Source: a virus
Taxonomy: Duplodnaviria > Caudoviricetes
Length of the DNA: 64,000 nucleotides
Direction: 5' to 3' (one strand)
Virus record (IMG/VR): IMGVR_UViG_3300034065_000151
Coordinates: 1 to 64,000 of that record
Shown: positions 43,556 to 63,898 of the stretch, piece by piece
Position numbering within the stretch: position 1 is the first letter of the stretch
Layout: each line of letters starts with the position of its first letter
Position numbers and translations under genes: made by a program
The notes under the pieces: model-generated
Databases searched by the model: none
Told to the model about the DNA's origin: nothing
What the model saw: the letters and a program-made list of their open reading frames with translations, nothing else

Positions 43556-44133
43556 AGGTGGAATAATATCTTTTCAATTTCATTAACAGTTTGATGATGT
43601 TTAAGTATATCAAAATGGCCAGTAGCAATAGGGATTACTAATTCTGCACATCCTGCTTCTTGCGAATTTATGCTTATAATGCCATCATTTGAACCATTAA
43701 TGAATGGATTGAACCCTTTGGTGCTAATAAGTGAAGCAAATTTACCGGTTATACGCGGTTGTACAGTCATCTTCTTAATTGTCCCACTTTGTGGGGTTAT
43801 ATCATCTAACACACCATAATTAGGTAGGAAATACTTAGTCGAGAACAAACTATCACTTCCACCAAATGGTGCTGATATAGTTACTAAATCTTTAACTTTA
43901 ATATTAGGTTGTAATGTTATAAGGTGGCCTAAGATACCACCGAGACTATGACCAACAATTGATATCTCAGTATCTGTAGGAATCTGTGATAATACTTCTT
44001 CAAGAATATTATCAATATTTTTAGATCCACTATAACTAATAAAAGTAGATTTATGAACAGAAAGCATCTCATCAATTAAGTTGAAAACTTCGGGACCACT
44101 TGCCATTCCATGTATCCAAACTATATGGTTCAT
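43552..44133 (-). CDS. alpha/beta hydrolase (lipase/esterase)
   Basis: IHG, GHSLGG, P.GGS, NDG, GH; no leader. Confidence 0.85.
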   Translation of the reverse strand: MNHIVWIHGMASGPEVFNLIDEMLSVHKSTFISYSGSKNIDNILEEVLSQIPTDTEISIVGHSLGGILGHLITLQPNIKVKDLVTISAPFGGSDSLFSTKYFLPNYGVLDDITPQSGTIKKMTVQPRITGKFASLISTKGFNPFINGSNDGIISINSQEAGCAELVIPIATGHFDILKHHQTVNEIEKILFHL

Positions 44134-44948
44134 TCGTCTATTTCTTCCTGGTCTATCTCTTTATAGTCTCGTATAGCATCACGTATAAAGTGCCATTGAT
44201 CTGCTTCAATCATTAATACAGGACCACCTACCCAAACCTCTTGTTCACCTAAATTATGATGAATATCTTTAGTTGTACAAACATCAAATTCTAAAGATTG
44301 TGGACTGTATGCCTTATAGATATCTGTTATAAATTGATTTGCAAATTCGTGAAGGGTACCCATATCATGAATTTCAAAAGCTTTTCTGAATACCTCAATT
44401 GCTTTTTCATCACCAGCTTCTAATTTACCAGCAAACTTTAAAAAACTTCTCCAACTTGATGGTTTAATTTCGGGAATATCTTCCCAATAGTCATTCATTC
44501 TGTTTATAGTGACAAATATACCAAATAAGGTTACTCTTGTTCTCCATAAATCATGACCACTACATACACCAATTTTTACACCATTATATGGAATAACAAC
44601 ATAAGGATCACCAAAACCTTGAGTATAATTAAGACGAGTTGAACAGACAAATGAGCGAGAACGTTTTGGGTATGCATTCATTAAAGGATTGTTATCCAAA
44701 ATGGTTGTATAGTAATTTGTTGTGTTTTCTGATTGACGACGAGTTAATGCTGGATTAACAGTATAGGCTTTATAGCCACCCAAACGTTGTGATTCACCAC
44801 GATACAATGGTTTATCTTTGATAGCCATCCATGTAGCATCAGAACATTTTGTTTTATAGATTTTAACAGCTTCATCAATGTCATATTTTTTATACATTGG
44901 GGTTTTTGTAATAGCTGCTTCGTCAAGGTATTCTTTAAATGTGATCAT
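44130..44948 (-). CDS. family A putative R-S-E ADP-ribosyltransferase with CTS-like leader
   Basis: MITFKEYLDE; LYRG..NYYT..YPKRSRSFVCST..EQEVW. Confidence 0.6.
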   Translation of the reverse strand: MITFKEYLDEAAITKTPMYKKYDIDEAVKIYKTKCSDATWMAIKDKPLYRGESQRLGGYKAYTVNPALTRRQSENTTNYYTTILDNNPLMNAYPKRSRSFVCSTRLNYTQGFGDPYVVIPYNGVKIGVCSGHDLWRTRVTLFGIFVTINRMNDYWEDIPEIKPSSWRSFLKFAGKLEAGDEKAIEVFRKAFEIHDMGTLHEFANQFITDIYKAYSPQSLEFDVCTTKDIHHNLGEQEVWVGGPVLMIEADQWHFIRDAIRDYKEIDQEEIDE

Positions 44949-45745
44949 GAAAGTTCTTCTTTAATATCTGCCCACATATTTAGCGAGATTAATAATACCG
45001 GACCACTTACCCACACTTCATTATTTCTGGCATCATGTGGAAAATCTTCAGTTGTGCAACATTCGAATCCTGTTTCTTCTGGACTATAAGCTGCCATGAC
45101 TGTTTCTAAGAAATCATTTCTGTGTTTATCTGCTTGTCCAAAACTGATAGCATGACCTAATCTGTTATAAGCAGCTTCACCACCAGCTTTAAGTAATTTA
45201 TCAAACTCAATCCATTTAGACCAGTCAGTTGAAGATAAATTTAAATCAGTGAATATAGTACGATTCATATTGGGTAAATTACGTTCTCTATTAAACAGAT
45301 TAATTTTAATATCCCAAATATCTTCTTCAGGTACTATCCCGATCTTAACTCCATTGTATGGAATCATTATCATAACATCATCAGTATTATGAGTGTACTG
45401 TTCAGCACGACCGAATGAGGTAGAAGCAATAAAACTTCTTGAACGTTTTGGATAGTCTTTCATACTAGGAATATTATCAAATATTAAAGTATAAAAGTTT
45501 GATGTATTTTGGCTAGCACGTTCTGTTTTAGATGGATCAACAGCTAAGCAACCAGTTTTATTTAATTTTTTAATTGTTGTTTCATTTCTTTCACCACGGT
45601 ACAACGGACGATCTTCACTGATCATCCACATTGCATCTCTGCAGTGACTCTTAATGGTTTTGATTGCGTCAGATAAATCAACGGGGCTATATTTCGGATC
45701 CCGTGTTTTGGCGCGCTCATTTAAAAAATCTTTAAAGGTTAGCAT
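44945..45745 (-). CDS. family A putative ADP-ribosyltransferase with CTS-like leader
   Basis: MLTFKDFLNE; LYRG..YPKRSRSFIASTS..NEVW. Confidence 0.6.
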   Translation of the reverse strand: MLTFKDFLNERAKTRDPKYSPVDLSDAIKTIKSHCRDAMWMISEDRPLYRGERNETTIKKLNKTGCLAVDPSKTERASQNTSNFYTLIFDNIPSMKDYPKRSRSFIASTSFGRAEQYTHNTDDVMIMIPYNGVKIGIVPEEDIWDIKINLFNRERNLPNMNRTIFTDLNLSSTDWSKWIEFDKLLKAGGEAAYNRLGHAISFGQADKHRNDFLETVMAAYSPEETGFECCTTEDFPHDARNNEVWVSGPVLLISLNMWADIKEELS

Positions 45746-45746
45746 T

Positions 45747-46070
45747 TTATTGACGTGTCAATTCTTTCCAGTTTACTAAAGGCATAGTAAGACGGATACT
45801 ACCCTTGCTGTCAATAATACTAACTTGTTCATTGTCACCAAGTTGAACTTTATAGTCACCAGCTTTAGCGATTACTTTTGGTTCTTCTTTTGATGGTTCT
45901 GAATTTGGTGGAGGTGTTTCTTGTTCAGTGCCTTCAGGACCTTGTTGTGAAGTAGCAGAACCCTGTGGCATGCCACCTTGAGTCTGTTTATCTAAACTAC
46001 CATTACCACCTGGCATATCATCTTCAGCAAGCTGGGTTGTGATTGCAGTAAGTTCTTTTAAAAAATTCAT
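45747..46070 (-). CDS. hypothetical protein, possible internal head protein
   Basis: MNFLKEL..LAE variant leader. Confidence 0.55.
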   Translation of the reverse strand: MNFLKELTAITTQLAEDDMPGGNGSLDKQTQGGMPQGSATSQQGPEGTEQETPPPNSEPSKEEPKVIAKAGDYKVQLGDNEQVSIIDSKGSIRLTMPLVNWKELTRQ

Positions 46071-46081
46071 TGTATTTCCTT

Positions 46082-46387
46082 TTATTTTGGGGTCTCGAAA
46101 TCGAGCGGGTTTTCATCCTTAGGGATAAAATATAACTGCTTGGCATCAGCACCATTTGGTGGATCAACTCTTGCAAACTTCTTATTCAAAAACGTGAATA
46201 GACTTATAATCCATGCACCACCAACAGTATCAATGACCTTATGCTTTTCTTCATGAGCTTTCATTAAGATATCATCTTTAACATCAAGAATTGAAACCAC
46301 ATCAGGAACACCTAATAATTTTTTAGCCATGGCAGATGCCTGAGCTTGTACTGCAATTTCAACTAGATACTGTTTGAATGTAATCAT
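46082..46387 (-). CDS. hypothetical protein with CTS-like leader
   Basis: MITFKQYLVE. Confidence 0.65.
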   Translation of the reverse strand: MITFKQYLVEIAVQAQASAMAKKLLGVPDVVSILDVKDDILMKAHEEKHKVIDTVGGAWIISLFTFLNKKFARVDPPNGADAKQLYFIPKDENPLDFETPK

Positions 46388-47190
46388 TTTCTTTCTCTAA
46401 CAACGCGTAAATTGGTAGCTTTAAGTTCAACTGTATCTGGATGATCTTCACCATCACGATCGAATTCAACAACAAAAGTCCTACCACCATCAATTGACTT
46501 ACCAACTTTAACAATAGTTGCTTCCCAACCCACTGCATCTTTTGGACCACTTTTAATCTTAACTCTTACACCCTTTTGGAATGGGGAAATATCATCAATA
46601 AATCCAGCAGATGCTTTTTTCTTTGCTACTGGCTTACCTTTGTTTTGTGATGACCAATGGCCTTTGTGAGCTTCATGTAATACTTTACCAGTACCTTCAT
46701 CAGCACCACCTTCTTCAGATGGGTCCCAAACACCAAAGCGACGATCGATACCAGGAACTTCTGCACTGACAGTCATCTTACCACCTTCCATACGGCCATT
46801 GAAACGCATCTTGGCAGCTTGGGTTGGATGGGATGTCTTAACAGCTTTCTTCCAATCATCAATATTCGTATATGTTACTTCTTCAGCAACTTTTAAAAGT
46901 TTTGCTTTAAAACCTTCAGCATATGAAGATACATCTTCTTTAACTTTTTTAGACTTGACTTTTTCACCAAGATCATCAATCTCTTGCTGCATCTTATTCA
47001 ATGTCTTTTCCAAATCTTTATAGGCTTTCTTCTCAGCAGTCAAATTCTTTAACTGACGCTGGAGCATGATAAACTTACGACGTTTATCAATAAGTGACTG
47101 GCGCATTAAGGCAATAGTATCCTCATTGGCTTTTGTAATAGCTGTTAGTTTGATAGCTTCATTAACTGGTTTGATATCACTGATTTTCAT
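46384..47190 (-). CDS. coiled-coil protein with C-terminal KOW/SH3-like region, possible head core protein
   Basis: MKISDIKPVNE leader; KGVRVKIKSGP..G.EATI; upstream AATAAATA. Confidence 0.55.
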   Translation of the reverse strand: MKISDIKPVNEAIKLTAITKANEDTIALMRQSLIDKRRKFIMLQRQLKNLTAEKKAYKDLEKTLNKMQQEIDDLGEKVKSKKVKEDVSSYAEGFKAKLLKVAEEVTYTNIDDWKKAVKTSHPTQAAKMRFNGRMEGGKMTVSAEVPGIDRRFGVWDPSEEGGADEGTGKVLHEAHKGHWSSQNKGKPVAKKKASAGFIDDISPFQKGVRVKIKSGPKDAVGWEATIVKVGKSIDGGRTFVVEFDRDGEDHPDTVELKATNLRVVRERK

Positions 47191-47222
47191 AGTATCCTCA
47201 AGATTGGTTAATTATTTATTGA

Positions 47223-47921
47223 TTATGACAACAATTTAACCACATCTCGTGTGAAACCATCATTCCAATTGAGTGTGTAATATTCAGTACAATGGATCAT
47301 AATTTCCGGACCATCACCATCACCCATTGCTTTTTTCAAATCATGGTCGATATATGGGTTAACCTTTTCTAAATACTTTTTAATAATCTCGGCATACTCC
47401 TCGGAATCCACTGGTGGTAAGGAAGTACTTAATTGTAAAGCATGGGTGATATCACCATAGCCTTCACGATTTTCATCACTTCTGTTTTCTTTGCTTTTCT
47501 TATTATCAAAGAAACGGTAAGCATCAAGGATTTTTGGAGACCATACATATTTGTATTCTCCTATTGGGAATACTATAAAAGCATCTCCATATTCTTCGGC
47601 GACATGACGACGGCCAGTTGTAAATACGGCATTACTTCTAAATTTGATACCAAACTTACTTTTGAAATAATTATCCAATACTTCATGGATTTCTTCAGAT
47701 GAATCTGTTGGACCACGATTGGTTCTTACTTTTTGTGTTGAGAATGCAGGAAGTTGCATATGACCGGAAACCCCACGCCATAAAGTATGATCATCCATAT
47801 TATTATAAGAGAATCCACTTTCCTTTAGGAAAGGTTGACAGTTAGCCTTAATCAAATCAGCAACTTGTTGAGGAGTCTGCTTTTCTTCTTTTTCATTTAG
47901 GAATTGTTTAAATGTTATCAT
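47223..47921 (-). CDS. family B putative ADP-ribosyltransferase with CTS-like leader
   Basis: MITFKQFLNE; LWRG..KFG..FRS.AVFTTG..A.EYG..FPIG..WS..PEIMIHC. Confidence 0.6.
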   Translation of the reverse strand: MITFKQFLNEKEEKQTPQQVADLIKANCQPFLKESGFSYNNMDDHTLWRGVSGHMQLPAFSTQKVRTNRGPTDSSEEIHEVLDNYFKSKFGIKFRSNAVFTTGRRHVAEEYGDAFIVFPIGEYKYVWSPKILDAYRFFDNKKSKENRSDENREGYGDITHALQLSTSLPPVDSEEYAEIIKKYLEKVNPYIDHDLKKAMGDGDGPEIMIHCTEYYTLNWNDGFTRDVVKLLS

Positions 47922-48577
47922 AATAGTTCCAATACTCTTTCAGTAAATTTATCTGGTAGACGGCTATCATATCTCAATGCATAATAGCTATCACAGTGTA
48001 TCATTATTTCATGACGAGATACAATAGCTTTAGCTAATTCATTGCTTTTATATGGATTAACTTTTCTAAGGTACTCACCAATGTCATCAACATAATCATC
48101 ACTTTCTCTAGCAATATCTTTACCTAATACATCACACATATCAGGAATACCATCAGCTTTAGGTTGAGCAAAATATGAATAAGCATCTTCAATTTTAGGT
48201 GACCAAATAAATTTGAAATTACCAATAGGAAATACTAAAAATGCATGACCATAGTTCTCAGCAATTTTTTCACTGCCGGTGACAAAAAAGGCTTCTGATC
48301 TATATTCAACCCCAAACTTTTCATCAAAGTACTTATTGAGTTCATTATGAATATAGCGATTAGTATCAACCGGATCACGTTGCATCCAACGTGTTTGTTT
48401 TGAAAATATAGGAAGGTCTACATAATCACCAACTCCACGGAATAATGATGTATCATTAAGTTCTCGTGGATCAAAACCACTCTGTGCCAAAAATGAATGA
48501 CAGTGCTCAATTATTAATTCAGCAGCTACTTCTGGTGTTTGAGTTTCTTCATTTAAGAATTGGCGGAAGGTAATCAT
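47918..48577 (-). CDS. family B paralog
   Basis: MITFRQFLNE; LFRG..FVTGS..YG..FPIG..HEIMIHC. Confidence 0.6.
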   Translation of the reverse strand: MITFRQFLNEETQTPEVAAELIIEHCHSFLAQSGFDPRELNDTSLFRGVGDYVDLPIFSKQTRWMQRDPVDTNRYIHNELNKYFDEKFGVEYRSEAFFVTGSEKIAENYGHAFLVFPIGNFKFIWSPKIEDAYSYFAQPKADGIPDMCDVLGKDIARESDDYVDDIGEYLRKVNPYKSNELAKAIVSRHEIMIHCDSYYALRYDSRLPDKFTERVLELL

Positions 48578-49266
48578 AATAAGTCTAATACCTCTTTGGT
48601 AAAATCTATTTTTGCACGGTTACTCTTACCATAATATAAAGTATAGTAGTTTTCACAATGAATCATAATTTCAGAATCATGATCAATTGCTTTAGATAAA
48701 TTGGTATCTTTATAAGGATGTGTTTTTTCTAAATACTGTTTAATAGCTTTACAATAATTTCTGTTATTTGAATCTTCATCATGATCAATATATTCAATCT
48801 TATGACCAAATATTTCATGATAGTCATTCATAAATTCACGATTTTCAGCATCAAAGAATAGATAAGCATCCCTAATCTGTTCTGACCAAATATATTGATA
48901 ATTACCAATTGGGAATATTATATAAGCACACCCATAATCCCTGGCTAATGAACAGGAACTAGTAGCAAAGAATGCATTACTACGATAGTTAATTCCAAAT
49001 TGTTCCATAAAATATTCATTTAATGTTTCATGTTGAAGTTTACTTGTATCTTTTGGTTGACGATTCATTTCAACACGGTTTTTGTGGAATGCTGGAAGTT
49101 CTGCTTTGATCCCACGATATAATTCATGTTGTGGACCAAAACCTTTAAATCTACTTTCTTCAAGAAACTTGGCGCAGTCTTTTTTAATTTTTTCGGCTGC
49201 TTGCTCTGGTGTAAAGTCACCTAGTTCATTATCACCTTCATTTAGAAACTGTTTAAATGTAATCAT
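48574..49266 (-). CDS. family B paralog
   Basis: MITFKQFLNE; LYRG..FATSS..YG..FPIG..SEIMIHC. Confidence 0.6.
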   Translation of the reverse strand: MITFKQFLNEGDNELGDFTPEQAAEKIKKDCAKFLEESRFKGFGPQHELYRGIKAELPAFHKNRVEMNRQPKDTSKLQHETLNEYFMEQFGINYRSNAFFATSSCSLARDYGCAYIIFPIGNYQYIWSEQIRDAYLFFDAENREFMNDYHEIFGHKIEYIDHDEDSNNRNYCKAIKQYLEKTHPYKDTNLSKAIDHDSEIMIHCENYYTLYYGKSNRAKIDFTKEVLDLL

Positions 49267-49907
49267 ACAGTCTCCATAAATGGTTTTACTAGTTCATTAT
49301 AAACAGAACCATTAAGATCAAAAATATAATATTCACCACACTTAAACATAATTTCATTTCCTGCACGCAGGCATTCTTTAATATCAGTATTATGATACCA
49401 TCTAAAGTGTTTTAATTTAGCTAACATTCTGTCCCAAGCAGATTCCATTCTTTTATCACCACTTGGATCATTTTTATTATCTATTGGGGTAGCATCTTTA
49501 GTATCCCAAAAAAAGCTTGTCATATCTTTAGATTCTTTATTAATACCACTTATCCATTCAAATTTTCCAATGGGAAATATTGCATATACTTTACCATATA
49601 CAGTTGCTACAGCATTATGTCCACTGGCAAATATCCAATTACGGATTGGCTCACCAAATTTTTCAGTAAAGAATTCATTTAGTTTTTTATGGATATAATC
49701 AGGAGTGCTCATTGGTGACCAACGGGCTTCCCATTTATTGATAGCCCAATTCTTAGTACCTTTGAAAGAAGCACCACGGTACATTACTAAATTACCTTGG
49801 GAACCCTTAAGTTCACCAAGGTAAAAAGCACAATCCTTTTTAAATTTATCTAAGTCAAAGTCATCAAAGGCTTTATCTTCAGATAAGAACTGTTTGAAAG
49901 AAATCAT
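49263..49907 (-). CDS. family B paralog
   Basis: MISFKQFLSE; MYRG..FASG..YG..FPIG..NEIMFKC. Confidence 0.6.
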   Translation of the reverse strand: MISFKQFLSEDKAFDDFDLDKFKKDCAFYLGELKGSQGNLVMYRGASFKGTKNWAINKWEARWSPMSTPDYIHKKLNEFFTEKFGEPIRNWIFASGHNAVATVYGKVYAIFPIGKFEWISGINKESKDMTSFFWDTKDATPIDNKNDPSGDKRMESAWDRMLAKLKHFRWYHNTDIKECLRAGNEIMFKCGEYYIFDLNGSVYNELVKPFMETV

Positions 49908-50611
49908 TCTTCGCCAAAGGAACCTATATGTTGATTCTTAAGACGAGTAATACCATTTCTTAAGTTGATTAGGAATTGTTCGATATCACCAATAGTTTGG
50001 GTCATATCTTTCCACTGAGTTTCAAATTCAGGAGTCCATGTCTTAGCTGACATCATCAAGTTACGACGATAACTAGTTACTTTATTTTTATTGTTTGGAT
50101 CTACTCTATTAAGTTCACTAACTAAATTATTATTTTCTTCTTCAAGTTTGTCAACCAAAGCAACAAGTTTTTCATCATTGACTTTAACTTTTTTTAACCA
50201 ATAGGTTAAAAGACCATGTGCATCTTGATGTTTAGCAACATCGATAACAGTATTCAAACCTTCAATCATTTTGTCTAAACGGAATTCTTTACGATCGACA
50301 CGTGGTAAGTACTTAGCCAAGATTGGTTTGATAAAGGATTCAAGATAGTCTTCAAGAGCTTTTTCATTTTCCTTACGATCACCCCATTTACCACTTAAGC
50401 CTTTAATAGCCAAAGCTTTAGGGAAATCACCATCATTGTAATAACGATAATAAGCACGGAAGATAGTATCTTTCTTTGCTTTTTCACCAGCCGTTAAAAT
50501 ACCCTTATCATACATCCATGACATAAGAGCATCAACCTTTTTAAGGCGACCTTCCCAAGCACGACCGGCAGAGGAGGCTTCATTTATTTGGTGCAATTCT
50601 TTAAGTAACAT
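49904..50611 (-). CDS. helical hypothetical protein with variant leader
   Basis: MLLKELHQINE; YYRYYNDGD.P. Confidence 0.6.
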   Translation of the reverse strand: MLLKELHQINEASSAGRAWEGRLKKVDALMSWMYDKGILTAGEKAKKDTIFRAYYRYYNDGDFPKALAIKGLSGKWGDRKENEKALEDYLESFIKPILAKYLPRVDRKEFRLDKMIEGLNTVIDVAKHQDAHGLLTYWLKKVKVNDEKLVALVDKLEEENNNLVSELNRVDPNNKNKVTSYRRNLMMSAKTWTPEFETQWKDMTQTIGDIEQFLINLRNGITRLKNQHIGSFGEE

Positions 50612-50698
50612 TTTGGTTTCCTTGTGTTAATTTACTTCTATGTGTAAGGTATTCATTATAATCTAATACCCAGTCTTTTATTCATTTATTTAAGCTTT

Positions 50699-51058
50699 TT
50701 ACTTGTTTCTGTCCATAAATTCTTTGTATTTCTTTTTATACCATTCATGGGTATCCATATTCCCCCTTTTACCATAATCCATCAATAGTTCAATATATTG
50801 ATCAGTGGCATGTTCATCCTTTGAAATAGCCTTCTCTCCTTTGGGAAAGGGACCATCAAGAACTGTTTGTGCATATAAAAGAGCAACCTCTGCATCTTTA
50901 GCAAGTATATTTTCATGTTTCTTTAATGCAGCAGGATCATTATGGTATTTTTGCCATACCAATCTTGGTACTGTTTCATGTGCTTTATCATATCCATGCA
51001 CAGACTCTGGCTTATCATGAAATTTATAAAGGCTTGAATATAGATTATTACTTGTCAT
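50699..51058 (-). CDS. helical-repeat protein (short paralog)
   Basis: Shares H..PES.HGY.KA..TVP..VW.KY with the next gene; one repeat unit. Confidence 0.65.
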   Translation of the reverse strand: MTSNNLYSSLYKFHDKPESVHGYDKAHETVPRLVWQKYHNDPAALKKHENILAKDAEVALLYAQTVLDGPFPKGEKAISKDEHATDQYIELLMDYGKRGNMDTHEWYKKKYKEFMDRNK

Positions 51059-51570
51059 GTGTCTTCTTCTTCTTTATCTTTTAAAAATTCTTTATATCTA
51101 GCTTTGTATATTGAACTACTATAAATTGCTTTTTCACCAGGTTCCCATGAACCACCAACCACATCTCGGGCATACAAATATGAACACTGGGCAGACTTTG
51201 CAATAGCTGCTTCACCAGCTGGAAACTCACCATCCAATACATCAATAGCATATTCTAATGCATGTGATGCACTTTTGGCAATAGCCGGTTCACCTTCTTT
51301 AAATCTTCCATGAACTACTTGCATTGCATATAAAGTAGAATATTCCGGATTGGTTGCAATTGCTTCTTCTCCTGCCGGGAATTCCTGACCAATTTCTTTA
51401 CGAGCATATTCATAAGCTAACTTTGGACTCTTAGCTATGACATGTTCATATTTTTTTAATTCTCTCGGATTGTTTTTATACTTATCCCATACTACTTGTG
51501 GAACTGTGGTTTGAGCTTTCTTGTAACCATGAATAGATTCAGGATCATTGTGGTGAGCATATAAGTTCAT
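51055..51570 (-). CDS. helical-repeat protein (4 x 26 aa)
   Basis: YA....G.F..GE.AIA repeats. Confidence 0.7.
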   Translation of the reverse strand: MNLYAHHNDPESIHGYKKAQTTVPQVVWDKYKNNPRELKKYEHVIAKSPKLAYEYARKEIGQEFPAGEEAIATNPEYSTLYAMQVVHGRFKEGEPAIAKSASHALEYAIDVLDGEFPAGEAAIAKSAQCSYLYARDVVGGSWEPGEKAIYSSSIYKARYKEFLKDKEEEDT

Positions 51571-51965
51571 ATTTCAGATTCTATTTCTTTTGATAAGGAA
51601 ATTAATTTGTTTAACTTAGCACCAGTACAATTTTGTGCACTAACTTCAACTGGTAACCATTTTTTCTTAGTCTGTTTTGCTGCAGCTGTTCTATGATGAC
51701 CATCAGTTAATGTAACTTTAGCAGTATTATTTTTATTAGCTTTATCATAATGATACGCAGTTACTTCAACTGGTTTATCATACTTCATATTCTTGGCAAC
51801 CTCATCTGATACTGACATTACTTCAGGTCTAAAATCCATTTCCGTCCGTTCAATAGCAGATACTGGAAGATACTTAATCTCAGAAATTATCCCACGATAA
51901 CCCTTATCATCTTCATAAGGGCCATGTAAAATAGCTTCACTAATAAACTGCTTGAATGTTATCAT
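51567..51965 (-). CDS. ParB/Srx-like domain protein with CTS-like leader
   Basis: MITFKQFISE; LTDGHHR.AAA....LPV. Confidence 0.7.
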   Translation of the reverse strand: MITFKQFISEAILHGPYEDDKGYRGIISEIKYLPVSAIERTEMDFRPEVMSVSDEVAKNMKYDKPVEVTAYHYDKANKNNTAKVTLTDGHHRTAAAKQTKKKWLPVEVSAQNCTGAKLNKLISLSKEIESEI

Positions 51966-52684
51966 GATCTATACCAGGATGATATCTTTTTATCTAAAGC
52001 TTCTTTAGTGAATACATCAGGAACCAAATACTTGGCCTTCTTTTCCTGTAATTCTTCTAATGTTCTTTTACCAACTGGATTACTAATTGGTTCATTATAG
52101 AATCCCTGTACTGCTTTGAAAGCTTTCTGCATAACCGCATCATCTAAACCATCAGTCGTGTTATCAATCTGTTTAAAGAAGTTTACTTTAGCCTTAAGGT
52201 ATTCCGCATTTTCTAAGTTCTTTTTATCAACAGTATGGATGAAGTCTTCATCAACATCTCGACCGGTTCTTGACTTGGCACGGGCAATGGCCGTATCAAT
52301 ATCTGTGTGTACAAATATTACACCGATATCATAACCAATAGATTCAAGGATACCAATACGATTTAAAATGTTGGACACATCATTAGAGGTTCCATCAATA
52401 AATAATGGAAGCATACTATCTAAGTAGTTTAGAAGTGTATTGTTGGTAATACGATGAGCTGAGTCTTTAAACTCATTCCAGTTTTTAGAGGTTGAGGTCT
52501 TCTTATATTTCTTGGCAAGATACTCGGTTGCTCTATCAGTATTGACAACTTTTGGTGATATTGAACCACTAAGCTGTTTAACAGTATAACTCTTACCAGC
52601 TCCTGGTAAACCAATAATAAAGATTGCCTTCATAATCCCCTTATCATTAACAGACTCGGCGATGAATTGTTTAAACGAAATCAT
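51962..52684 (-). CDS. P-loop kinase (zeta-toxin/AAA_33-like) with CTS-like leader
   Basis: MISFKQFIAE; KAIF..G.PGAGKS, VN.D, IDGT, GY....FV.T....A.AR...R..R.V. Confidence 0.75.
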   Translation of the reverse strand: MISFKQFIAESVNDKGIMKAIFIIGLPGAGKSYTVKQLSGSISPKVVNTDRATEYLAKKYKKTSTSKNWNEFKDSAHRITNNTLLNYLDSMLPLFIDGTSNDVSNILNRIGILESIGYDIGVIFVHTDIDTAIARAKSRTGRDVDEDFIHTVDKKNLENAEYLKAKVNFFKQIDNTTDGLDDAVMQKAFKAVQGFYNEPISNPVGKRTLEELQEKKAKYLVPDVFTKEALDKKISSWYRS

Positions 52685-55378: not shown

Positions 55379-55395
55379 AAATAACCATATATGAA

Positions 55396-55417
55396 AAAAG
55401 GCACCTAAGTGCCTTTT
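55396..55417. terminator. intrinsic terminator
   Basis: AAAAGGCAC-CTAA-GTGCCTTTT. Confidence 0.75.
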
Positions 55418-55438
55418 AGTATTACTTTATTATGTTGT

Positions 55439-55855
55439 TTAAGCAACAATTGCTGGAGCAGCTGCAACAGTAATTGAAACATCGCCTGATTCATTATGTG
55501 CTGTAACAATAGCACTGATGATATTACCTACATCGGTAGATTGGCAAAGGTATTCAGAAGCTGTTTGATCTGGGATGACACCAGTTGCTGAGCTTGACCA
55601 TGCATAAGTAAAGGTTGGAGCTGGAACACCAGTCCATGTACCATTACTAATAAACAATGGCATACCAACTTTAGCAGTACCTGTCATTCCAGGAGGAACT
55701 GTATTTACCGGGGCTGAACCAGGAGGAGTAACTGCTGGAGCACCATGGGCCCAATCAACTTTCCAGTCAGCTTTCGCATCTTCTTTCCAGTCAAGTTTAA
55801 AATCTTGCTTAACACCAGTAAGGCTTGTGTATAAGTTAGCAATGTTATTAGTCAT
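55439..55855 (-). CDS. Ig-like domain virion protein
   Basis: APVNT.PP...G.....GTWTG.P.PTFTY.W..Y....DVG..I...VTA.N. Confidence 0.7.
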   Translation of the reverse strand: MTNNIANLYTSLTGVKQDFKLDWKEDAKADWKVDWAHGAPAVTPPGSAPVNTVPPGMTGTAKVGMPLFISNGTWTGVPAPTFTYAWSSSATGVIPDQTASEYLCQSTDVGNIISAIVTAHNESGDVSITVAAAPAIVA

Positions 55856-55867
55856 GTAATTCCCCTA

Positions 55868-56461
55868 TTAAGAAAGGTTACCAGCAAGAGCAGTACCATA
55901 GCCTTGACCAGTTAATGTTTGTGAAGCCATATCGAAACGGATTGATAAATCAATAGTAACCGCTTCATTAGAATCATAGGACAATTCACCAAAGTTAGAT
56001 GAAGTAATCCAGCAACCTTCAATATTCCATTGTTCAACAATACCTTCATTACCATCTAGTTGTTGAAGAATCATACCGAATTTGTAATCGGAACCAGTTG
56101 CAGCAGTATTCAAGAATTGACCAGGAAGATCAGCACCAATCAAACGTTGTTGAGTTTGCAATTGACCTTGGATAGCAGATGATGCCAAACCAGTCATATC
56201 ATCTTCAACAGTTAATGTCAAAGGATCGAATACATATTTACCAGCAACATATGCTGTTGAGTTATAGCGATGAATAGCGATTTCATCAAATTTGATATTT
56301 GGACGAGTTACGTGTGTTAACTGTCTTGTAAGATCGCGAGAAGAACTACCAGGCACTAAGGAAGCTAAACCCGAGAAAATTACCTGCCAACGATATTTCT
56401 GCTTTGGTTGCAAAATACCAAATCCCGCAGCAGGAACTCCCATTTGGGATAGAGTAGCCAT
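55868..56461 (-). CDS. tail tube protein (gp19-like)
   Basis: QPK..YRW.V.F, RPN..F, Y.AGK, WNIEGCW, L.Y, IRFD; follows the sheath gene. Confidence 0.85.
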   Translation of the reverse strand: MATLSQMGVPAAGFGILQPKQKYRWQVIFSGLASLVPGSSSRDLTRQLTHVTRPNIKFDEIAIHRYNSTAYVAGKYVFDPLTLTVEDDMTGLASSAIQGQLQTQQRLIGADLPGQFLNTAATGSDYKFGMILQQLDGNEGIVEQWNIEGCWITSSNFGELSYDSNEAVTIDLSIRFDMASQTLTGQGYGTALAGNLS

Positions 56462-59321: not shown

Positions 59322-61228
59322 ACTTTCCCTCCTAATGGGACTCGTGTTGCTGATTGCATAATACTTCTGATTGAAGGTTTTGCAGATGTGTATAAACCAC
59401 GTTTGTCTTGTTCTAAGAATAACCAAGCATTTTTAACTGTTGAGAAACGATATAAACGTGGTGCAATAACAGTTTCAGGTGGATAATATAAACGGAAATA
59501 AGCACCATCAGCAACACCTGCGATTGGTGGTAAAGTATAACCTTCAGTATATGGTTCTCCATTTTTTGGCAAACCATCTTCAATATACAAGTTAGGTGTG
59601 CTTCCAACTGGAGCAGATAGTGGTTGACCAGATGGATTTCTAGGAGGTGGAGCAATATACTCTACAATACCTGCAATTTCCTGTCTATCATCGGAACCAA
59701 CTTCTGGAACAGCATCAGCTGCATTCTTGATTATCTCTTCTGTATTGGTTAATGGTAATGTATCAATTTGCTGACCTACACCATTTGTAAACAATGCATC
59801 AGCAATTAAATATTTCTGAGTATCCATCGTACCAAAAATATCTCTGGTTTCCTGTGATGGTAATGCTTGCTGACCTGAAAAACGATAAGTGGTTGGGTTA
59901 TACAATGGACCAAATCCAGAACTCTGCCAAGCAGCATCAGTTACTTCCAAGAACTTACGGATAGGTAATAAGTTCTGATCATATTGCATCTCTGGTATAA
60001 CTTCAATAATATCTCCAACAACTATAGGACGACCTAAAGCTTTTACCATAGTTGCAAAGGAAACAACAAATGTATATTGTTCGAGAATATTAAGACCGAA
60101 GCGGGCAAGGTCACTAACAGAGTCTGCTGGTGAATATTGGGCTTTAAGTGGGATTGGAACCAATCCATATTCACGATCACGATTTTCATTAAAGAATAAA
60201 TCTTGAATATTATTAATTGTGGTTGGCATTTCATCAAGTACATCAAATGCAACTACTTCCCAGCTACCAGTTCCAGTGAACATGGTAGGGGTTACCATAA
60301 TAGCTTTAACTTTTAATAAAGTATTAAGATTAAGAGTTTGTGGTAATGGTGATTGAACCATATTATATAAACCAACACGTTTCCAATTATAATTAAGTGG
60401 AACCATAAACATATCACCAACAGCAAAGGGAGTCGATCCAGAAGCTATTGTTAAATTAAGGAAGGTACTATAAAATGGAATATCAGATGTCAAGGTTCCC
60501 AAATTAATAGTTGTACTATCAGGCAAGGTAGCATACACATTAAAGGTCATTGAAGAAATTGCAACTATATTAATAACACTTTGAGTTGCATCAGAACCAA
60601 TACCATTAGTAGTAAGTACACCATTACCGGTTCCAGAAAAGAAAGTAATGCCGGGAGATACATCTCCAGAAGTAATTTCAACTTTAACCTGTTGTGCAAA
60701 TTGACCAGGGTTATTTGATTGTGTTAAATTGATAGCACCAACACTTACCCATTTTTGAGCTTCTGGTTCATATTCAGTACGACCATTAGCAAGTAATTTA
60801 ATACCAAAGTCAACACCGACATAAGCAGTATTAGTAACTGCAGAACCTTGTTGGGAAGACCACCATGATTGTCCTGGTTGATTTAAACCAGTTAATGGAT
60901 AACCTGGATATGAGGTAGAACCAATTATGCGGCCTTGTGATAATACAGAACCATTTCCTTGTTGGTGAATACCAAGTAAAGGATAGATATTAAGGGGAGC
61001 ACCTGAAATATTAATAGTTTCAGCAACATAAGTCTGCTGATTGAGTGCTTCATTTTGTGCACATATATCTGGGTTAATACCTGTAATCTGCCAGTCACCA
61101 ATCGGTAAGGCAGGTGGAACATATGGTTTTAATGCAGTATTATTCAAACCAGTTTGAGCTGGAGGTGCATTGGGATTGTTTAAACTACCCCCACCATTTT
61201 CACAAGGTAATGTTGGTTGTTGTATCAT
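59318..61228 (-). CDS. neck protein (gp14-like) with inserted domains
   Basis: IQDL.F.ENRDR.Y, DL.RFGL, LGR..VGD.IE; position before gp15. Confidence 0.7.
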   Translation of the reverse strand: MIQQPTLPCENGGGSLNNPNAPPAQTGLNNTALKPYVPPALPIGDWQITGINPDICAQNEALNQQTYVAETINISGAPLNIYPLLGIHQQGNGSVLSQGRIIGSTSYPGYPLTGLNQPGQSWWSSQQGSAVTNTAYVGVDFGIKLLANGRTEYEPEAQKWVSVGAINLTQSNNPGQFAQQVKVEITSGDVSPGITFFSGTGNGVLTTNGIGSDATQSVINIVAISSMTFNVYATLPDSTTINLGTLTSDIPFYSTFLNLTIASGSTPFAVGDMFMVPLNYNWKRVGLYNMVQSPLPQTLNLNTLLKVKAIMVTPTMFTGTGSWEVVAFDVLDEMPTTINNIQDLFFNENRDREYGLVPIPLKAQYSPADSVSDLARFGLNILEQYTFVVSFATMVKALGRPIVVGDIIEVIPEMQYDQNLLPIRKFLEVTDAAWQSSGFGPLYNPTTYRFSGQQALPSQETRDIFGTMDTQKYLIADALFTNGVGQQIDTLPLTNTEEIIKNAADAVPEVGSDDRQEIAGIVEYIAPPPRNPSGQPLSAPVGSTPNLYIEDGLPKNGEPYTEGYTLPPIAGVADGAYFRLYYPPETVIAPRLYRFSTVKNAWLFLEQDKRGLYTSAKPSIRSIMQSATRVPLGGKV

Positions 61229-62115
61229 TCGTCACTTTCTTCATAATCTTTCGGATCATGTTTTACATACCATTGCTTTGGGATATATTCTTTTACAAAT
61301 TCTTCTAGGGCATCATTTTGTGCCATACGACGAAGAAGTCCTTCAAATCTCAAAAAGGCACATTTACCTTGTACCCAGATTTCATTATCGTGACCACCAA
61401 ATGAAGCAGAACCTGAAACAACATGACTAAAACCGTTCTTGGTAGGATCCATTCCATTTTCAAAAAGATCATATAGTGTTCTAAACCCATGAGTTTTAAA
61501 TGCTTGAAGGTATTTTTTCCATTCTTCACGTTTACCGGTTTCAGTATTTAAATCATCTATTAATTCAAAGGTAACTCTTTTTAAACAGCTACATAAAGCT
61601 GCATAGTTTTTATGAGCCATATTATATTCAGACAAATGCTCACGCTTATTTGCGGCCATAATAAGGTCTTGAACATCAGACATAAAACCATCCATACTTC
61701 TACCGGTCATGCGATCGATATAATCAAAGCCATACCATAAATCATCACCAGCAATGATACCAATTTCTGAACCATCTGCTGGAATAATTAAATGGACATT
61801 ACCAAAACCACCTGCCATATCATTGTTAGTACTACAAATATAAGACTTAGAACGTTTCGGATAATCTTTCCATGCAGGATTGTTATCCATCCAAATTGTG
61901 TAATAGTTTACAGTATTGGCGGATTCCCGATTTAAACTGTTAGTATCAAAAACCCCCATTTTTATGCTCATTGGCATACCACGAAATATAGGACTCTTTT
62001 TAATCTGTGGTAGATATTTTGAGGCATTAGTTTCACACCACTTCACAAACAGATCGGGTTCCATCTCGGTGTGGGCAAACTGGTCTTCATTTAAAAATTG
62101 TTTGAATGTTATCAT
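61225..62115 (-). CDS. family A putative ADP-ribosyltransferase with CTS-like leader
   Basis: MITFKQFLNE; IFRGM..NYYTIWMDNNP.W..YPKRSKSYICST..NEIWVQG. Confidence 0.62.
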   Translation of the reverse strand: MITFKQFLNEDQFAHTEMEPDLFVKWCETNASKYLPQIKKSPIFRGMPMSIKMGVFDTNSLNRESANTVNYYTIWMDNNPAWKDYPKRSKSYICSTNNDMAGGFGNVHLIIPADGSEIGIIAGDDLWYGFDYIDRMTGRSMDGFMSDVQDLIMAANKREHLSEYNMAHKNYAALCSCLKRVTFELIDDLNTETGKREEWKKYLQAFKTHGFRTLYDLFENGMDPTKNGFSHVVSGSASFGGHDNEIWVQGKCAFLRFEGLLRRMAQNDALEEFVKEYIPKQWYVKHDPKDYEESDE

Positions 62116-62957
62116 TATCTATCCAACATGTATTTAGTCATAAAATCTTCGAGTACTTCATTGTCACTTTCTTCAAGGCCATCTTCACTATATTTAAGGA
62201 TGCCACAAGTACCTTGAATCCATACTTCTTTGCTAGGACCTGGATTTTTATAGGTTGCTCCAGTTTCAACATCAAAGCCATTTTGTAATGGGTTGAAACC
62301 TAACTGCATTAAATCAAATAAGTTGTCACAGCCACTACGTTCAAAAGCAAGTAAGAAGTGTTCAAAATCTTTTTTTCTTGTTAGGTTTTTGGTAAGGTTT
62401 TTTAATGTTACTTTTTTCAAACACTTAACCAATGCTTTATAATCCATTTGAGCATTTTTAAATTCTTCTGTTTCTTCACTATCTAATTTCATTACCAGAT
62501 GAATCCAGCTATTAAAATTATCAAGGGTGGAATAGTTACCCATACCCATTTTCTTAAACAAGTATTTAAAGGACATCCACAAATCATATTCTGGACAGAT
62601 ACCAATCTTGGCATTATCAGCAGGGATAATTAAAAACGTATTATCATTACCATAGCTACTAGCAGTAGTTAAATTGGTAGAACAGATAAAAGACTTAGAA
62701 CGCTTCGGATACTCTTTCCAAGCTGGATTGTTATCAATCCAAATTGTGTAATAATTTAAAGAGTTAGCAGACTTACGGTTTAAACCATTAGTATCTGAAA
62801 TTCCCACTTTGGTTTCACCAGGCATACCACGATAGATATGTTTGTCCTTAGCACCATTTAAATAGGCACTAGCATTAGTTTCACACCACTTAACAAACTC
62901 TTCTGGTGAAACATCTCTAGTAATATCTCCATTAATAAACTGTTTAAATGATATCAT
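62115..62957 (-). CDS. family A paralog (leader lacks Glu10)
   Basis: MISFKQFING; IYRGM..YPKRSKSFICST..KEVWIQG. Confidence 0.62.
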   Translation of the reverse strand: MISFKQFINGDITRDVSPEEFVKWCETNASAYLNGAKDKHIYRGMPGETKVGISDTNGLNRKSANSLNYYTIWIDNNPAWKEYPKRSKSFICSTNLTTASSYGNDNTFLIIPADNAKIGICPEYDLWMSFKYLFKKMGMGNYSTLDNFNSWIHLVMKLDSEETEEFKNAQMDYKALVKCLKKVTLKNLTKNLTRKKDFEHFLLAFERSGCDNLFDLMQLGFNPLQNGFDVETGATYKNPGPSKEVWIQGTCGILKYSEDGLEESDNEVLEDFMTKYMLDR

Positions 62958-63898
62958 TTAAAACTCACATGATCAAAGTGTTTCTTTAGGAATTCATTAA
63001 TAACATCATGTTGTTTAATTATCTTGCCACCCATTGGATTTTCTTCTTCATCTTCTTCAGTCTCATCATTTTCATCTTCACTCTCAATTTTAAGAATGGC
63101 ACAATTTCCCTGAATCCAAACCTCTTGATTTGTTGGGGGTGGACGATATCCATGACCAGTATAAACTTTAAACTTGTTTACTTTTGGATCAAAGCCTTTC
63201 TGGAATACTTCATACATACTTGTGTAGCCATATTTTTCAAAGACTTTAACAGCATCCATAAATCCGCCTTTTGTTTTTTGATTGGCTTCTTTAAGTGACT
63301 CTAAAGTAACTCGCTTTAAACAACTACATAAGGCGGCATAATCATTTTCTATGTTCTTATAATCTGGATCATTCTCACCTAATACTGCTTCAAACATTTT
63401 TTGAAAATCATTCATATATTCTTCTAATGTTCCACGATATTTTGGATCAGCATCAAATATTTTATCCAACTGTTTAAAGCCATACCATAAATCTATCTCA
63501 GGACATACACCCATTTTGGCATCATCTGCCGGGATAATTAAAAAAGTACTTCCATAACCCATCTCGGAAGCACTATTAAAAGAAGTAGCACAACATAAGG
63601 ATTTGGAACGCTTTGGATAATTTTTCCATTCAGGATTATTATCCATCCAAATAGTATAGTAGTTATAAGTGTTCAATGATTTACGGTTCAATTTGTTAGT
63701 ATCACAAAGACCAATCTTAATATCTTCTGGCATACCACGAAAAAGCATTTTATCTTTGGAACCCTTAAGATAATGAGTAGCATTGGTCTCGCACCATTTT
63801 ACAAAGGCTTCAGGGCTTATAGATTGTGTAACCCCTTTAGCTGGGCCATATCTACTTGCTGATATGTCTTCATTTAAGAACTGTTTAAATGTTATCAT
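62954..63898 (-). CDS. family A paralog
   Basis: MITFKQFLNE; LFRGM..YPKRSKSLCCAT..QEVWIQG. Confidence 0.62.
   Translation of the reverse strand: MITFKQFLNEDISASRYGPAKGVTQSISPEAFVKWCETNATHYLKGSKDKMLFRGMPEDIKIGLCDTNKLNRKSLNTYNYYTIWMDNNPEWKNYPKRSKSLCCATSFNSASEMGYGSTFLIIPADDAKMGVCPEIDLWYGFKQLDKIFDADPKYRGTLEEYMNDFQKMFEAVLGENDPDYKNIENDYAALCSCLKRVTLESLKEANQKTKGGFMDAVKVFEKYGYTSMYEVFQKGFDPKVNKFKVYTGHGYRPPPTNQEVWIQGNCAILKIESEDENDETEEDEEENPMGGKIIKQHDVINEFLKKHFDHVSFK

What the first reader, a model, noticed from the sequence alone, without database searches (positions are those of the whole stretch)
44130..63898. Nine-member paralog expansion of probable R-S-E ADP-ribosyltransferases in two subfamilies
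Seen: family A (44130, 44945, 61225, 62115, 62954) shares [YF]RG...NT.N[YF]YT...DN.P....YPKRS[KR]S...[SA]T...E[VI]W. Family B (47223, 47918, 48574, 49263, in tandem) shares [WFY]RG...KFG...F.[TS]...A..YG...FPIG...EIM. Both show Arg (xRG), a Ser/Thr strand and a late Glu, the order of the R-S-E ART triad. The residue two before the Glu varies (E-Q-E, N-N-E, D-N-E, S-K-E, N-Q-E, G-P-E, R-H-E, D-S-E, G-N-E). Established: in R-S-E ARTs this position influences acceptor specificity, and T4 Alt is a packaged, injected ART. Inference: diversified injected ARTs or NADases aimed at different host targets or defence systems.
Basis: partly seen in the sequence, partly recalled or inferred. Interest (0 to 1): 0.82.

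Follow-up and report, generated by a model that had tools for sequence, protein, structure and literature searches.

The report
Capsid-packaged ART-fold enzyme paralogs in phage
A giant T4-like phage carries nine diverged copies of an undescribed protein family whose predicted fold and key residues resemble NAD-using ADP-ribosyltransferases. Each copy has the short T4-type address tag that loads proteins into the phage head, so they are probably injected into the host with the DNA.

Summary
Nine minus-strand ORFs at the stated coordinates form two homologous subfamilies, A (5 copies) and B (4 copies). With the leader removed, hhalign gives 97.7% probability, E 2e-12.

All nine, plus six neighbouring genes, begin with MITFKQF[LI]xE. 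This closely matches the T4 internal-protein capsid targeting sequence MKTYQEFIAE, and a gp21-type prohead protease lies 10 kb away. In Agrobacterium phage Atu_ph07, an array containing both subfamilies (gp53-gp65) was detected in virions by published mass spectrometry.

Best reading: packaged, ejected ART-fold enzymes that have diversified mainly in a helical insert at the usual acceptor-recognition position. The family is large, with 4,335 clusters at 50% identity, and uncharacterised. The scan has not noted it on other DNA.

The parts
44130..44948 (-). Family A paralog A1 (272 aa), leader MITFKEYLDE, E-Q-E before strand 5
   Evidence: A4 HMM E 1.8e-63; phrog_12810 E 5e-34; alignment
44945..45745 (-). 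Family A paralog A2 (266 aa), leader MLTFKDFLNE, N-N-E
   Evidence: A4 HMM E 1.8e-60; forms a clade with A1, support 1.0
61225..62115 (-). Family A paralog A3 (296 aa), leader MITFKQFLNE, D-N-E
   Evidence: A4 HMM E 2.7e-87; ortholog P0003 in another metagenome
62115..62957 (-). Family A paralog A4 (280 aa), leader MISFKQFING (Gly instead of Glu at position 10), S-K-E. This is the protein that was modelled.
   Evidence: AlphaFold pLDDT 93.1, pTM 0.90; ART-dominated fold hits; leader DNA GGA versus GAA
62954..63898 (-). Family A paralog A5 (314 aa), leader MITFKQFLNE, N-Q-E, acidic C-terminal tail. Lies directly downstream of the gp13-like adaptor gene.
   Evidence: A4 HMM E 3.8e-81; upstream gene matches phrog_211 head-tail adaptor
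47223..47921 (-). Family B paralog B1 (232 aa), leader MITFKQFLNE, G-P-E. This is the protein that was modelled.
   Evidence: AlphaFold pLDDT 90.3; ART-dominated fold hits; A6 HMM E 1.7e-75
47918..48577 (-). Family B paralog B2 (219 aa), leader MITFRQFLNE, R-H-E
   Evidence: A6 HMM E 3.7e-67; phrog_11975 E 5e-36
48574..49266 (-). Family B paralog B3 (230 aa), leader MITFKQFLNE, D-S-E
   Evidence: A6 HMM E 2.5e-70; also a weak phrog_12810 hit
49263..49907 (-). Family B paralog B4 (214 aa), leader MISFKQFLSE, G-N-E
   Evidence: A6 HMM E 5.8e-62
41941..43555 (-). Three further leader-tagged cargo genes of other families: a GNAT acetyltransferase (41941-42285), an ART-PolyVal-like YHGS protein (42282-42827) and a YHGT protein (42824-43555)
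   Evidence: Leaders; Pfam Acetyltransf_10 E 1.3e-7 and ART-PolyVal E 3e-6, below the gathering score
46082..46387 (-). Leader-tagged 101-aa protein of unknown fold (MITFKQYLVE)
51567..52684 (-). Two leader-tagged genes: a 132-aa unknown (51567-51965) and a Zeta-toxin/AAA_33-type P-loop kinase (51962-52684, leader MISFKQFIAE). In Atu_ph07 gp53 this kinase domain is fused to a family A domain.
   Evidence: Pfam AAA_33 E 1.9e-9 and Zeta_toxin E 1.5e-8; phrog_12810 positions 255-458; BFVD 778-aa fusion

Best explanation
The nine genes encode two related subfamilies of an uncharacterised ART-fold enzyme family that the phage carries inside its head.

Proposed course of events, with shown and inferred steps marked:
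1. Each protein is made late, co-transcribed and translationally coupled with head, neck and tail genes. The gene overlaps are shown; the expression timing is inferred.
2. The 10-residue N-terminal leader MITFKQF[LI]xE acts like the T4 internal-protein capsid targeting sequence and takes the protein into the prohead core. The sequence match is shown; the function is inferred.
3. The gp21-type prohead protease clips the leader after [LI]-x-E (inferred). The mature 24-35 kDa protein stays among the packaged DNA and is ejected into the host with it (inferred).
4. In the host, the conserved cleft most likely binds NAD+ and transfers ADP-ribose to a host protein or nucleic acid, for early takeover or to disable a defence (inferred). 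The cleft residues are Arg on strand 1, Cys/Ser/Thr on strand 2 and Glu at the start of strand 5, plus family-specific invariant Arg, Arg, Asn and Asp.
5. The paralogs differ most in the helical insert between strands 4 and 5 and in the loop before the Glu. ARTs place their acceptor-recognition (ARTT) element at this position, so each copy probably has a different target (inferred).
For: Fold:
- AlphaFold models have pLDDT 93.1 and 90.3.
- These are followed by tankyrase and other PARPs, cholix toxin, exotoxin A, DarT, Tpt1, AcrIF11, scabin and pertussis toxin. About 38 and 42 of the top 50 are ART folds.
- BC2332-like is SCOP d.166.1.6, within the ADP-ribosylation superfamily (PMC3000352).

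Residues:
- In A, R43 is Arg in 146/147, position 93 is S/T in 137/147 and E244 is Glu in 147/147.
- In B, R49 is Arg in 45/50 with His in 4/50, the R/H interchange typical of ARTs, and E206 is Glu in 50/50.
- The residues lie on strands 42-44, 90-93 (followed by a helix) and 244-248.
- Local hhalign matches to T4 ModA and ModB fall on their WRG/YRG and E-Q-E-V-M motifs.

Packaging:
- 15 ORFs between 41941 and 63898 share the leader, and none do elsewhere in the 140 kb.
- T4 IPII and IPIII begin MKTYQEFIAE.
- In T4, the first 10 residues suffice for head targeting (positions 4 and 7 for targeting, 8 and 10 for cleavage), and gp21 cuts after L/I-X-E (PMC9026906).
- Peptidase_S77 scores 88 bits at contig 73628-74056.
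- The leader is the most conserved segment among paralogs (69-78% identity against 16-45% elsewhere) and carries many synonymous DNA differences.
- The Atu_ph07 homologue array gp53-gp65 was detected in virions by ESI-MS/MS with 3-31 peptides each (PMC6102473 Table S5; homology).

Synteny: the order gp13, A, gp14-like, B, gp15 recurs in a 375-kb metagenomic phage.
Against: - No ART Pfam model or solved ART matches by sequence.
- The hhalign matches to ModA and ModB have only 1.6-10.6% probability.
- The Ser of the S-T-S position is not invariant.
- The residue two before the Glu is mostly D or N, not the E or Q of classical R-S-E enzymes.
- Several family-specific invariant residues (R61, N68, R86 and D125 in A) have no counterpart in known ARTs. 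The chemistry or ligand could therefore differ.
- Packaging, cleavage and ejection are not shown for this phage.
- The mature proteins are mildly acidic to near-neutral (eight have pI 4.9-5.9; B4 is 7.8), unlike the basic T4 internal proteins.
Confidence: 0.55

Rival explanations
1. The proteins are packaged and ejected and have the ART fold, but they do not ADP-ribosylate. They might hydrolyse or bind NAD+ or immune signalling nucleotides (NADase or sponge). They might act on RNA or DNA ends in the manner of Tpt1. Or they might be stoichiometric inhibitors of host defence proteins, as T4 IPI* is of GmrSD.
For: - Extra invariant Arg, Arg, Asn and Asp are absent from known ARTs.
- The closest structural neighbours include Arr (small-molecule acceptor), Tpt1 (RNA 2'-phosphate), DarT (DNA) and the anti-CRISPR AcrIF11.
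- The family domain is fused to a Zeta/polynucleotide-kinase-like P-loop domain in Atu_ph07 gp53.
- T4 internal proteins include a pure inhibitor (PMC3012670).
Against: - The absolutely conserved Glu at the start of strand 5 and the Arg (or His) on strand 1 are the hallmark of NAD+-dependent transfer.
- A pure binder would not need them conserved across 147 and 50 diverse sequences.
Confidence: 0.27
2. They are structural or scaffolding components of the large head (internal core or DNA-organising proteins), multiplied to fill a jumbo capsid, with no enzymatic role in the host.
For: - They lie in the head-neck-tail gene module.
- The Atu_ph07 homologues were detected in virions with 12-47% sequence coverage.
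- Jumbo phages carry paralogous internal-body proteins (PMC9026906).
Against: - The invariant polar residues sit on catalytic-type positions of an enzyme fold.
- The paralogs have diverged by more than one substitution per site while keeping these residues.
- The proteins are mostly mildly acidic rather than basic.
- The co-tagged neighbours are enzymes (GNAT, kinase, H-type ART-like).
Confidence: 0.12
3. The shared N-terminus is not a packaging signal. It could be a translation, regulatory or recombination cassette, and the proteins act only inside the infected cell.
For: No direct evidence in this phage. One member (62115) lacks the Glu at position 10.
Against: - The leader is conserved as a peptide with many synonymous codon differences.
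- It matches the T4 CTS at its functional positions 4, 7, 8 and 10.
- The Atu_ph07 homologues carry their own variant, M[RK]WxQLxE, and are found in virions.
- A gp21-type protease is encoded nearby.
Confidence: 0.05

Closest known systems
T4 Alt (capsid-packaged, injected R-S-E ADP-ribosyltransferase) and T4 ModA/ModB
   Same: - A T4-type phage, an ART fold, and packaging in the head with an N-terminal propeptide removed by gp21 (Alt; PMC9026906).
- The YRG and E-[VI]-[WM]-[IV] motifs resemble ModA WRG and E-Q-E-V-M-I.
   Different: - No significant sequence homology (hhalign probability 10.6% or less).
- No ModA homologue in the 140-kb contig.
- Nine copies instead of one packaged enzyme.
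- A 65-90-residue helical insert between strands 4 and 5.
- Extra invariant Arg, Arg, Asn and Asp.
- The leader is of the IPII/IPIII type rather than Alt's own propeptide.
[quoted passage not shown]
   Same: - A ten-residue leader with an aromatic residue at positions 4 and 7, L or I at 8 and E at 10. T4 reads MKTYQEFIAE and this phage MITFKQFLNE, MKTFKQFITE or MISFKQFIAE.
- A gp21-type protease is present.
- Diverse mature parts sit behind one conserved tag.
   Different: - The T4 internal proteins are small (8-20 kDa), basic and non-enzymatic as far as known.
- The proteins here are 24-35 kDa, mostly mildly acidic and have an enzyme fold.
BC2332-like (PDB 2aua, SCOP d.166.1.6) and Arr rifampin ADP-ribosyltransferase (PDB 9iaf): minimal ARTs of the H-Y-E side
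   Same: - Four family B members carry His instead of Arg on strand 1.
   Different: - Sequence identity is 8-14%.
- Arg replaces His in more than 90% of members.
- There is no Tyr on strand 2 (Ile in A, invariant Phe in B).
ART-PolyVal domains of phage and plasmid polyvalent proteins (PF18760)
   Same: - Delivered with the DNA.
- They co-occur with GNAT and kinase-type domains. The same domain set appears here as separately tagged genes and is partly fused in Atu_ph07.
- There are weak structural matches in BFVD and the ESM Atlas.
   Different: - Families A and B do not match PF18760.
- Only the neighbouring gene 42282-42827 does, and it scores below the gathering cut-off.
Atu_ph07 gp53-gp65, with homologues in Ralstonia phage RsoM2USA, Salicola phage SCTP-2 and huge-phage contigs LR756508 and LR756502 (PHROGs 12810, 11975, 15932, all 'unknown function')
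   Same: - True family members: profile E down to 2e-65, Foldseek E down to 2e-16.
- Tandem arrays that mix A-type and B-type copies, each with a short N-terminal [L]-x-E leader.
- Presence in virions shown by mass spectrometry.
   Different: - All are annotated as hypothetical.
- In the library searched here, no paper assigns them a fold or a function.

Membership tests
ADP-ribosyltransferase superfamily (SCOP d.166.1 / Pfam clan ADP-ribosyl) | Split beta-sheet ART core fold | tested here: met
   [not shown]
ADP-ribosyltransferase superfamily | Arg or His on strand 1, Ser/Thr or Tyr on strand 2 followed by a helix, and Glu at the start of strand 5, all converging on one cleft | tested here: inconclusive
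   The order and the secondary-structure elements fit (R43 on 42-44, S93 on 90-93 followed by helix 96-103, E244 on 244-248). The R/H interchange is seen in B.
ADP-ribosyltransferase superfamily | Binds NAD+ and transfers or hydrolyses ADP-ribose | not testable with these tools
   Needs biochemistry.
R-S-E clade (cholera/pertussis/C3/VIP2/Alt/ModA/ModB type) | Aromatic-Arg-Gly on strand 1 | tested here: met
   In A, [YFW]-R-G: Arg in 146/147 and Gly in 145/147. In B, Arg in 45/50 and Gly in 47/50.
R-S-E clade | Conserved S-T-S on strand 2 | tested here: inconclusive
   A reads [ILF]-I-C-[ST]-[TNS], with position 93 as S 88, T 49, A 10 and Cys 92 in 143/147. B reads F-[ACV]-[TS]-G. A hydroxyl residue is usual but not invariant, and the register is uncertain by one residue.
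R-S-E clade | [QE]-x-E motif before strand 5 | tested here: not met
   The Glu is invariant, but the residue two before it is D 50, N 39, G 9, E 9 and so on in A, and G, N, D or K in B. Only one of the nine window copies reads E-x-E.
R-S-E clade / T4 Alt-ModA-ModB family | Detectable sequence homology to known members or their Pfam models | tested here: not met
   No Pfam ART hit for any of 147 members or the nine window copies. hhalign against ModA and ModB gives 1.6-10.6% probability. PDB profile searches find nothing.
T4-type CTS-tagged internal (ejected) head proteins | Ten-residue N-terminal leader with targeting residues at 4 and 7 and an [LI]-x-E cleavage site at 8-10 | tested here: met
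   Eight of the nine (and 14 of the 15 tagged ORFs) read M-x-[TS]-F-x-x-[FY]-[LIV]-x-E. T4 IPII and IPIII read MKTYQEFIAE (rules from PMC9026906). The ORF at 62115 has Gly at position 10.
T4-type CTS-tagged internal head proteins | gp21-type prohead protease encoded by the same phage | tested here: met
   PF03420 scores 88.4 bits, above the cut-off, at contig 73628-74056. phrog_207 head maturation protease matches at E 5e-54.
T4-type CTS-tagged internal head proteins | Physically present in virions, processed, and ejected | not testable with these tools
   Shown only for homologues: Atu_ph07 gp53-gp65 in virion ESI-MS/MS (PMC6102473 Table S5). Processing and ejection are not shown for any member.
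ART-PolyVal (PF18760) | Match to the Pfam model | tested here: not met
   No hit for A or B. Only the neighbouring ORF 42282-42827 matches, at E 3e-6 and below the gathering score.

The most novel reading that the evidence does not exclude
Families A and B represent a very large, undescribed branch of the ART superfamily with its own catalytic constellation: Arg, Cys/Ser/Thr and Glu plus invariant Arg, Arg, Asn and Asp. It would modify a new class of acceptor, such as nucleic acid, a nucleotide immune signal or a defence protein. In giant T4-like phages, a ten-residue capsid-targeting tag would serve as a modular address label that loads a multi-enzyme kit into the head for co-injection: about nine ART-fold enzymes, two H-type ART-like proteins, a GNAT and a Zeta-like kinase.
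Probability: 0.35. Interest if true: 0.82.

Novelty: new variant of a known kind. Interest (0 to 1): 0.68.

Why it matters
Phage proteins that enter the cell with the DNA act before any phage gene is expressed. They are therefore prime candidates for first-strike host takeover and anti-defence functions. Only a handful are understood: T4 Alt, IPI*, and the polyvalent proteins.

This locus offers a family of thousands of sequence clusters with a confident fold, clear candidate catalytic residues, a recognisable delivery tag and a cultured relative (Atu_ph07) in which the homologues are already known to be virion proteins. That makes several questions directly testable:
- what giant phages inject;
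- whether ADP-ribosylation, of proteins or of nucleic acids, is a general injected weapon;
- how paralog diversification tracks host targets.

The tag itself could also be used to mine other injected effectors and as a packaging handle in non-coli phages.

Tried and rejected
- Pfam on the nine ORFs and on all 147 family A members: no family.
- PDB sequence-profile searches with three alignments: only spurious helical-bundle hits on the insert.
- Foldseek against the PDB for both models: nothing at E 1e-3 or better.
- Megablast of 44130-50611 against cultured phages: no match.
- hhalign of A and B against the neighbouring H-type ART-like proteins: only the leader aligns, plus one weak strand-2/helix stretch. 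A and B are therefore not close kin of those neighbours.
- hhalign against T4 ModA and ModB: motif-level matches only, not significant.
- ModA protein search in the contig: nothing, but the contig is only about 40% of the genome.
- T4 late promoter TATAAATA: present upstream of the two tail-tube-like genes but not directly upstream of the arrays, and overall no more frequent than chance. Late expression is therefore inferred only from operon structure.
- ESM Atlas: only unnamed viral clusters. DUF2441 at score 0.83 is a lead I did not pursue.
- Supplementary files of the jumbo-phage survey PMC7824862 were not held, so I could not check whether its authors had classed Atu_ph07 gp53-gp65 as ARTs.
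- The idea that the shared N-terminus reflects recent DNA duplication or gene conversion is rejected: the codons differ synonymously throughout.

Full report
Setting. The window is the first 64 kb of a 140.8-kb IMG/VR viral contig that CheckV rates about 40% complete, so it comes from a giant phage. All genes lie on the minus strand. The gene content is T4-like: tail sheath, two tail-tube-like genes, a gp15-like gene, a split large terminase, UvsX, a gp32-like SSB, helicases and RNR. Just beyond the window lie a gp13-like adaptor, the major head protein, a gp21-type protease and the portal.

Observation. Family A (five copies) matches phrog_12810, and family B (four copies) matches phrog_11975 and phrog_15932. 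All three PHROGs are 'unknown function'. HMMs built from wider alignments score the nine at E 1e-60 to 1e-87 and find no other member in the 140-kb contig. A and B are homologous: hhalign gives 98.7% probability, E 2.5e-16, and 97.7%, E 2e-12 over 115 columns after the shared N-terminus is cut off. The aligned columns pair YRG with YRG, R-x-S with R-x-P, K-R-S with F-R-S, A-x-x-Y-G with A-x-x-Y-G, and the I-I-P and F-P-I-G prolines.

Size of the family. A profile search of 1.84 billion representative proteins found 4,335 clusters at E 1e-3 or better and 2,257 at E 1e-30 or better. None of 147 members hits any Pfam family, and no solved structure matches by sequence. Cultured phages with members are Agrobacterium phage Atu_ph07, Ralstonia phage RsoM2USA and Salicola phage SCTP-2; two huge-phage metagenome contigs also have them. 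All are annotated as hypothetical.

Fold. AlphaFold2 with these alignments gave confident models: A (62115-62957) at pLDDT 93.1 and pTM 0.90, and B (47223-47921) at pLDDT 90.3 and pTM 0.86. Foldseek found nothing in the PDB. The exhaustive VIA-align search of 48,161 representative chains returned ART-superfamily proteins almost exclusively.

Catalytic positions.
- In A, Arg43 (146/147) lies on strand 42-44.
- I-C-[ST]-[TNS] (Cys 143/147; position 93 S or T in 137/147) forms strand 90-93 and is followed by the helix carrying A-x-x-Y-G.
- Glu244 (147/147) opens strand 244-248.
- In B, the equivalents are R49, F100-x-[TS] and E206 (50/50).
- Four B members from other phages read Y-H-[GS] instead of Y-R-G. 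This is the Arg/His alternation that separates the two great ART branches.
- The best local hhalign matches to T4 ModA and ModB are not significant (1.6-10.6% probability). Still, they land on the ModA/ModB WRG/YRG motif and the ModA E-Q-E-V-M-I motif.

Against a simple R-S-E label:
- the nearest structures are H-Y-E-type minimal ARTs;
- the Ser is not invariant;
- the residue two before the Glu is mostly Asp or Asn;
- the family has its own invariant residues (R61, N68, P84, R86, P112 and D125 in A; R95, F100, P119 and D133 in B) with no known ART counterpart.

I could not obtain model coordinates, so convergence of the triad in one cleft is not verified.

Delivery. All nine proteins begin with MITFKQF[LI]xE or a near variant. 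So do six neighbouring genes:
- a GNAT;
- two H-type ART-like proteins;
- a 101-aa protein;
- a 132-aa protein;
- a Zeta-toxin/AAA_33-type kinase.

No other ORF in the 140 kb has this start. T4 IPII and IPIII begin MKTYQEFIAE. In T4, these ten residues are sufficient to load a protein into the head. Positions 4 and 7 serve targeting and positions 8 and 10 serve cleavage, and gp21 cuts after L/I-X-E (PMC9026906; PMC3012670). The leader here has Phe at 4, Phe or Tyr at 7, Leu, Ile or Val at 8 and Glu at 10.

The leader is the best-conserved segment among the paralogs, at 69-78% identity. The core is 39-45% identical and the insert 16-20%. The codons differ synonymously, so the peptide itself is under selection. 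One copy (62115) has Gly at position 10. By analogy with the T4 position-10 Asp substitution, which blocks processing but not targeting, this copy may be packaged without being clipped.

The phage encodes a gp21-type protease (88 bits).

Independent experimental support comes from Atu_ph07. Its genes at 39484-53137 (AUZ94865-AUZ94878, that is gp53-gp66) hold eleven proteins of this family. They comprise A-type and B-type copies and fusions, and nearly all begin with M[RK]WxQLxE-type leaders. Every one of gp53-gp65 was detected in purified virions by ESI-MS/MS, with 3-31 unique peptides each (PMC6102473, Table S5).

Organisation and evolution. The genes overlap by 1-4 bases with their neighbours and sit inside the late structural operons. 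A3-A5 lie between the gp13-like gene and a 636-aa virion protein, next to gp15. The other block follows the terminase. The order gp13, A, gp14-like, B, gp15 recurs in a 375-kb metagenomic phage.

In a 147-sequence tree, A3-A5 form one clade (support 0.92) that includes an ortholog of A3 from another sample. A1-A2 form another clade (support 1.0), and the two join only at the root. Branch lengths exceed one substitution per site. The picture is old tandem duplications, deeply diverged, with the catalytic-type residues retained.

The most variable part is the helical insert between strands 4 and 5 (131-222 in A, 136-200 in B) and the loop before the Glu. From established ART structural knowledge, this is where ARTs carry their acceptor-recognition (ARTT) element. 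The link to target choice is my inference.

Fusions in Atu_ph07 tie these cargo domains together functionally: A + Zeta-like kinase (gp53), B + A (gp54) and GNAT-like + B (gp63).

Mechanism proposed. The sequence of events is late synthesis, leader-mediated loading into the prohead core, leader removal by the gp21-type protease, storage with the DNA, ejection into the host, and then NAD+-dependent modification of host targets that differ between paralogs. Shown here:
- the family and its homology;
- the fold class;
- residue conservation and placement on secondary-structure elements;
- leader identity with the T4 CTS;
- the protease gene;
- virion presence of homologues.

Inferred: packaging and clipping in this phage, ejection, NAD+ use, and the targets. 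The extra invariant arginines leave open a nucleic-acid or nucleotide acceptor, or hydrolase or binder roles. The rival explanations cover these.

Novelty. Packaged ARTs (Alt), CTS-tagged internal proteins and ART-containing polyvalent proteins are known. A review has already suggested that the CTS may let T4-like phages load varied proteins. New here:
- an undescribed, very large ART-fold family with an atypical residue set;
- its multiplication to nine copies per genome (eleven in the Atu_ph07 array);
- its place in a 15-gene set of separately tagged enzymes.

I found no paper describing the family, and the scan has not noted it on other DNA.

Noticed in passing
41941-43555: Three more leader-tagged genes directly after the terminase ATPase gene: a GNAT (Pfam Acetyltransf_10 E 1.3e-7), an ART-PolyVal-like YHGS protein (PF18760 E 3e-6, below the cut-off; also weak DUF3990) and a YHGT protein with no family hit.
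   Followed up: partly
51962-52684: A leader-tagged P-loop kinase (AAA_33 E 1.9e-9, Zeta_toxin E 1.5e-8; phrog polynucleotide kinase E 3.6e-8). It matches positions 255-458 of phrog_12810, and in Atu_ph07 gp53 (778 aa) the same domain is fused behind a family A domain.
   Followed up: partly
62928-62957: The leader of the 62115-62957 copy reads MISFKQFING. A single-base difference (GGA versus GAA) removes the Glu at the predicted protease cleavage position, so this copy may be packaged but not clipped.
   Followed up: no
43552-44133: An alpha/beta-hydrolase-like ORF (PGAP1-like E 1.3e-6, Lipase_3 E 1.4e-4) sits inside the cargo array, but it has no leader.
   Followed up: no
46082-46387 and 51567-51965: Two small leader-tagged proteins (101 and 132 aa) with no family or fold assignment. 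They are further candidate ejected proteins.
   Followed up: no
50699-51570 and 53148-54048: Two pairs of adjacent paralogous ORFs without the leader: 50699-51058 with 51055-51570, which share an HGY-K-A-x-x-TVP-x-VW-x-KY start, and 53148-53594 with 53572-54048, which share an F-x-RS-x-WE motif.
   Followed up: no
L011 (Atu_ph07 MF403008.1 39484-53137): An array of eleven family A/B proteins with phage-specific leaders of the MRWEQLTE or MKWHQLTE type. It includes the fusions B+A (gp54, 490 aa) and GNAT-like+B (gp63, 362 aa). All of gp53-gp65 are in the published virion proteome.
   Followed up: yes
L016/L017 (375-kb JGI contig Ga0308169_10000034): The same neck-gene synteny occurs in another giant phage: gp13 (642 aa), family A (280 aa, leader MQTFKQFLLD), a 644-aa protein, family B (208 aa, leader MITFKQFLSE), then gp15. 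A second family B gene lies two genes further downstream.
   Followed up: partly
54051-56461: Two tail-tube-like genes (a 430-aa ORF and a 197-aa ORF, both matching phrog_4542), each preceded by an exact T4 late-promoter box TATAAATA (55371 and 56520).
   Followed up: no
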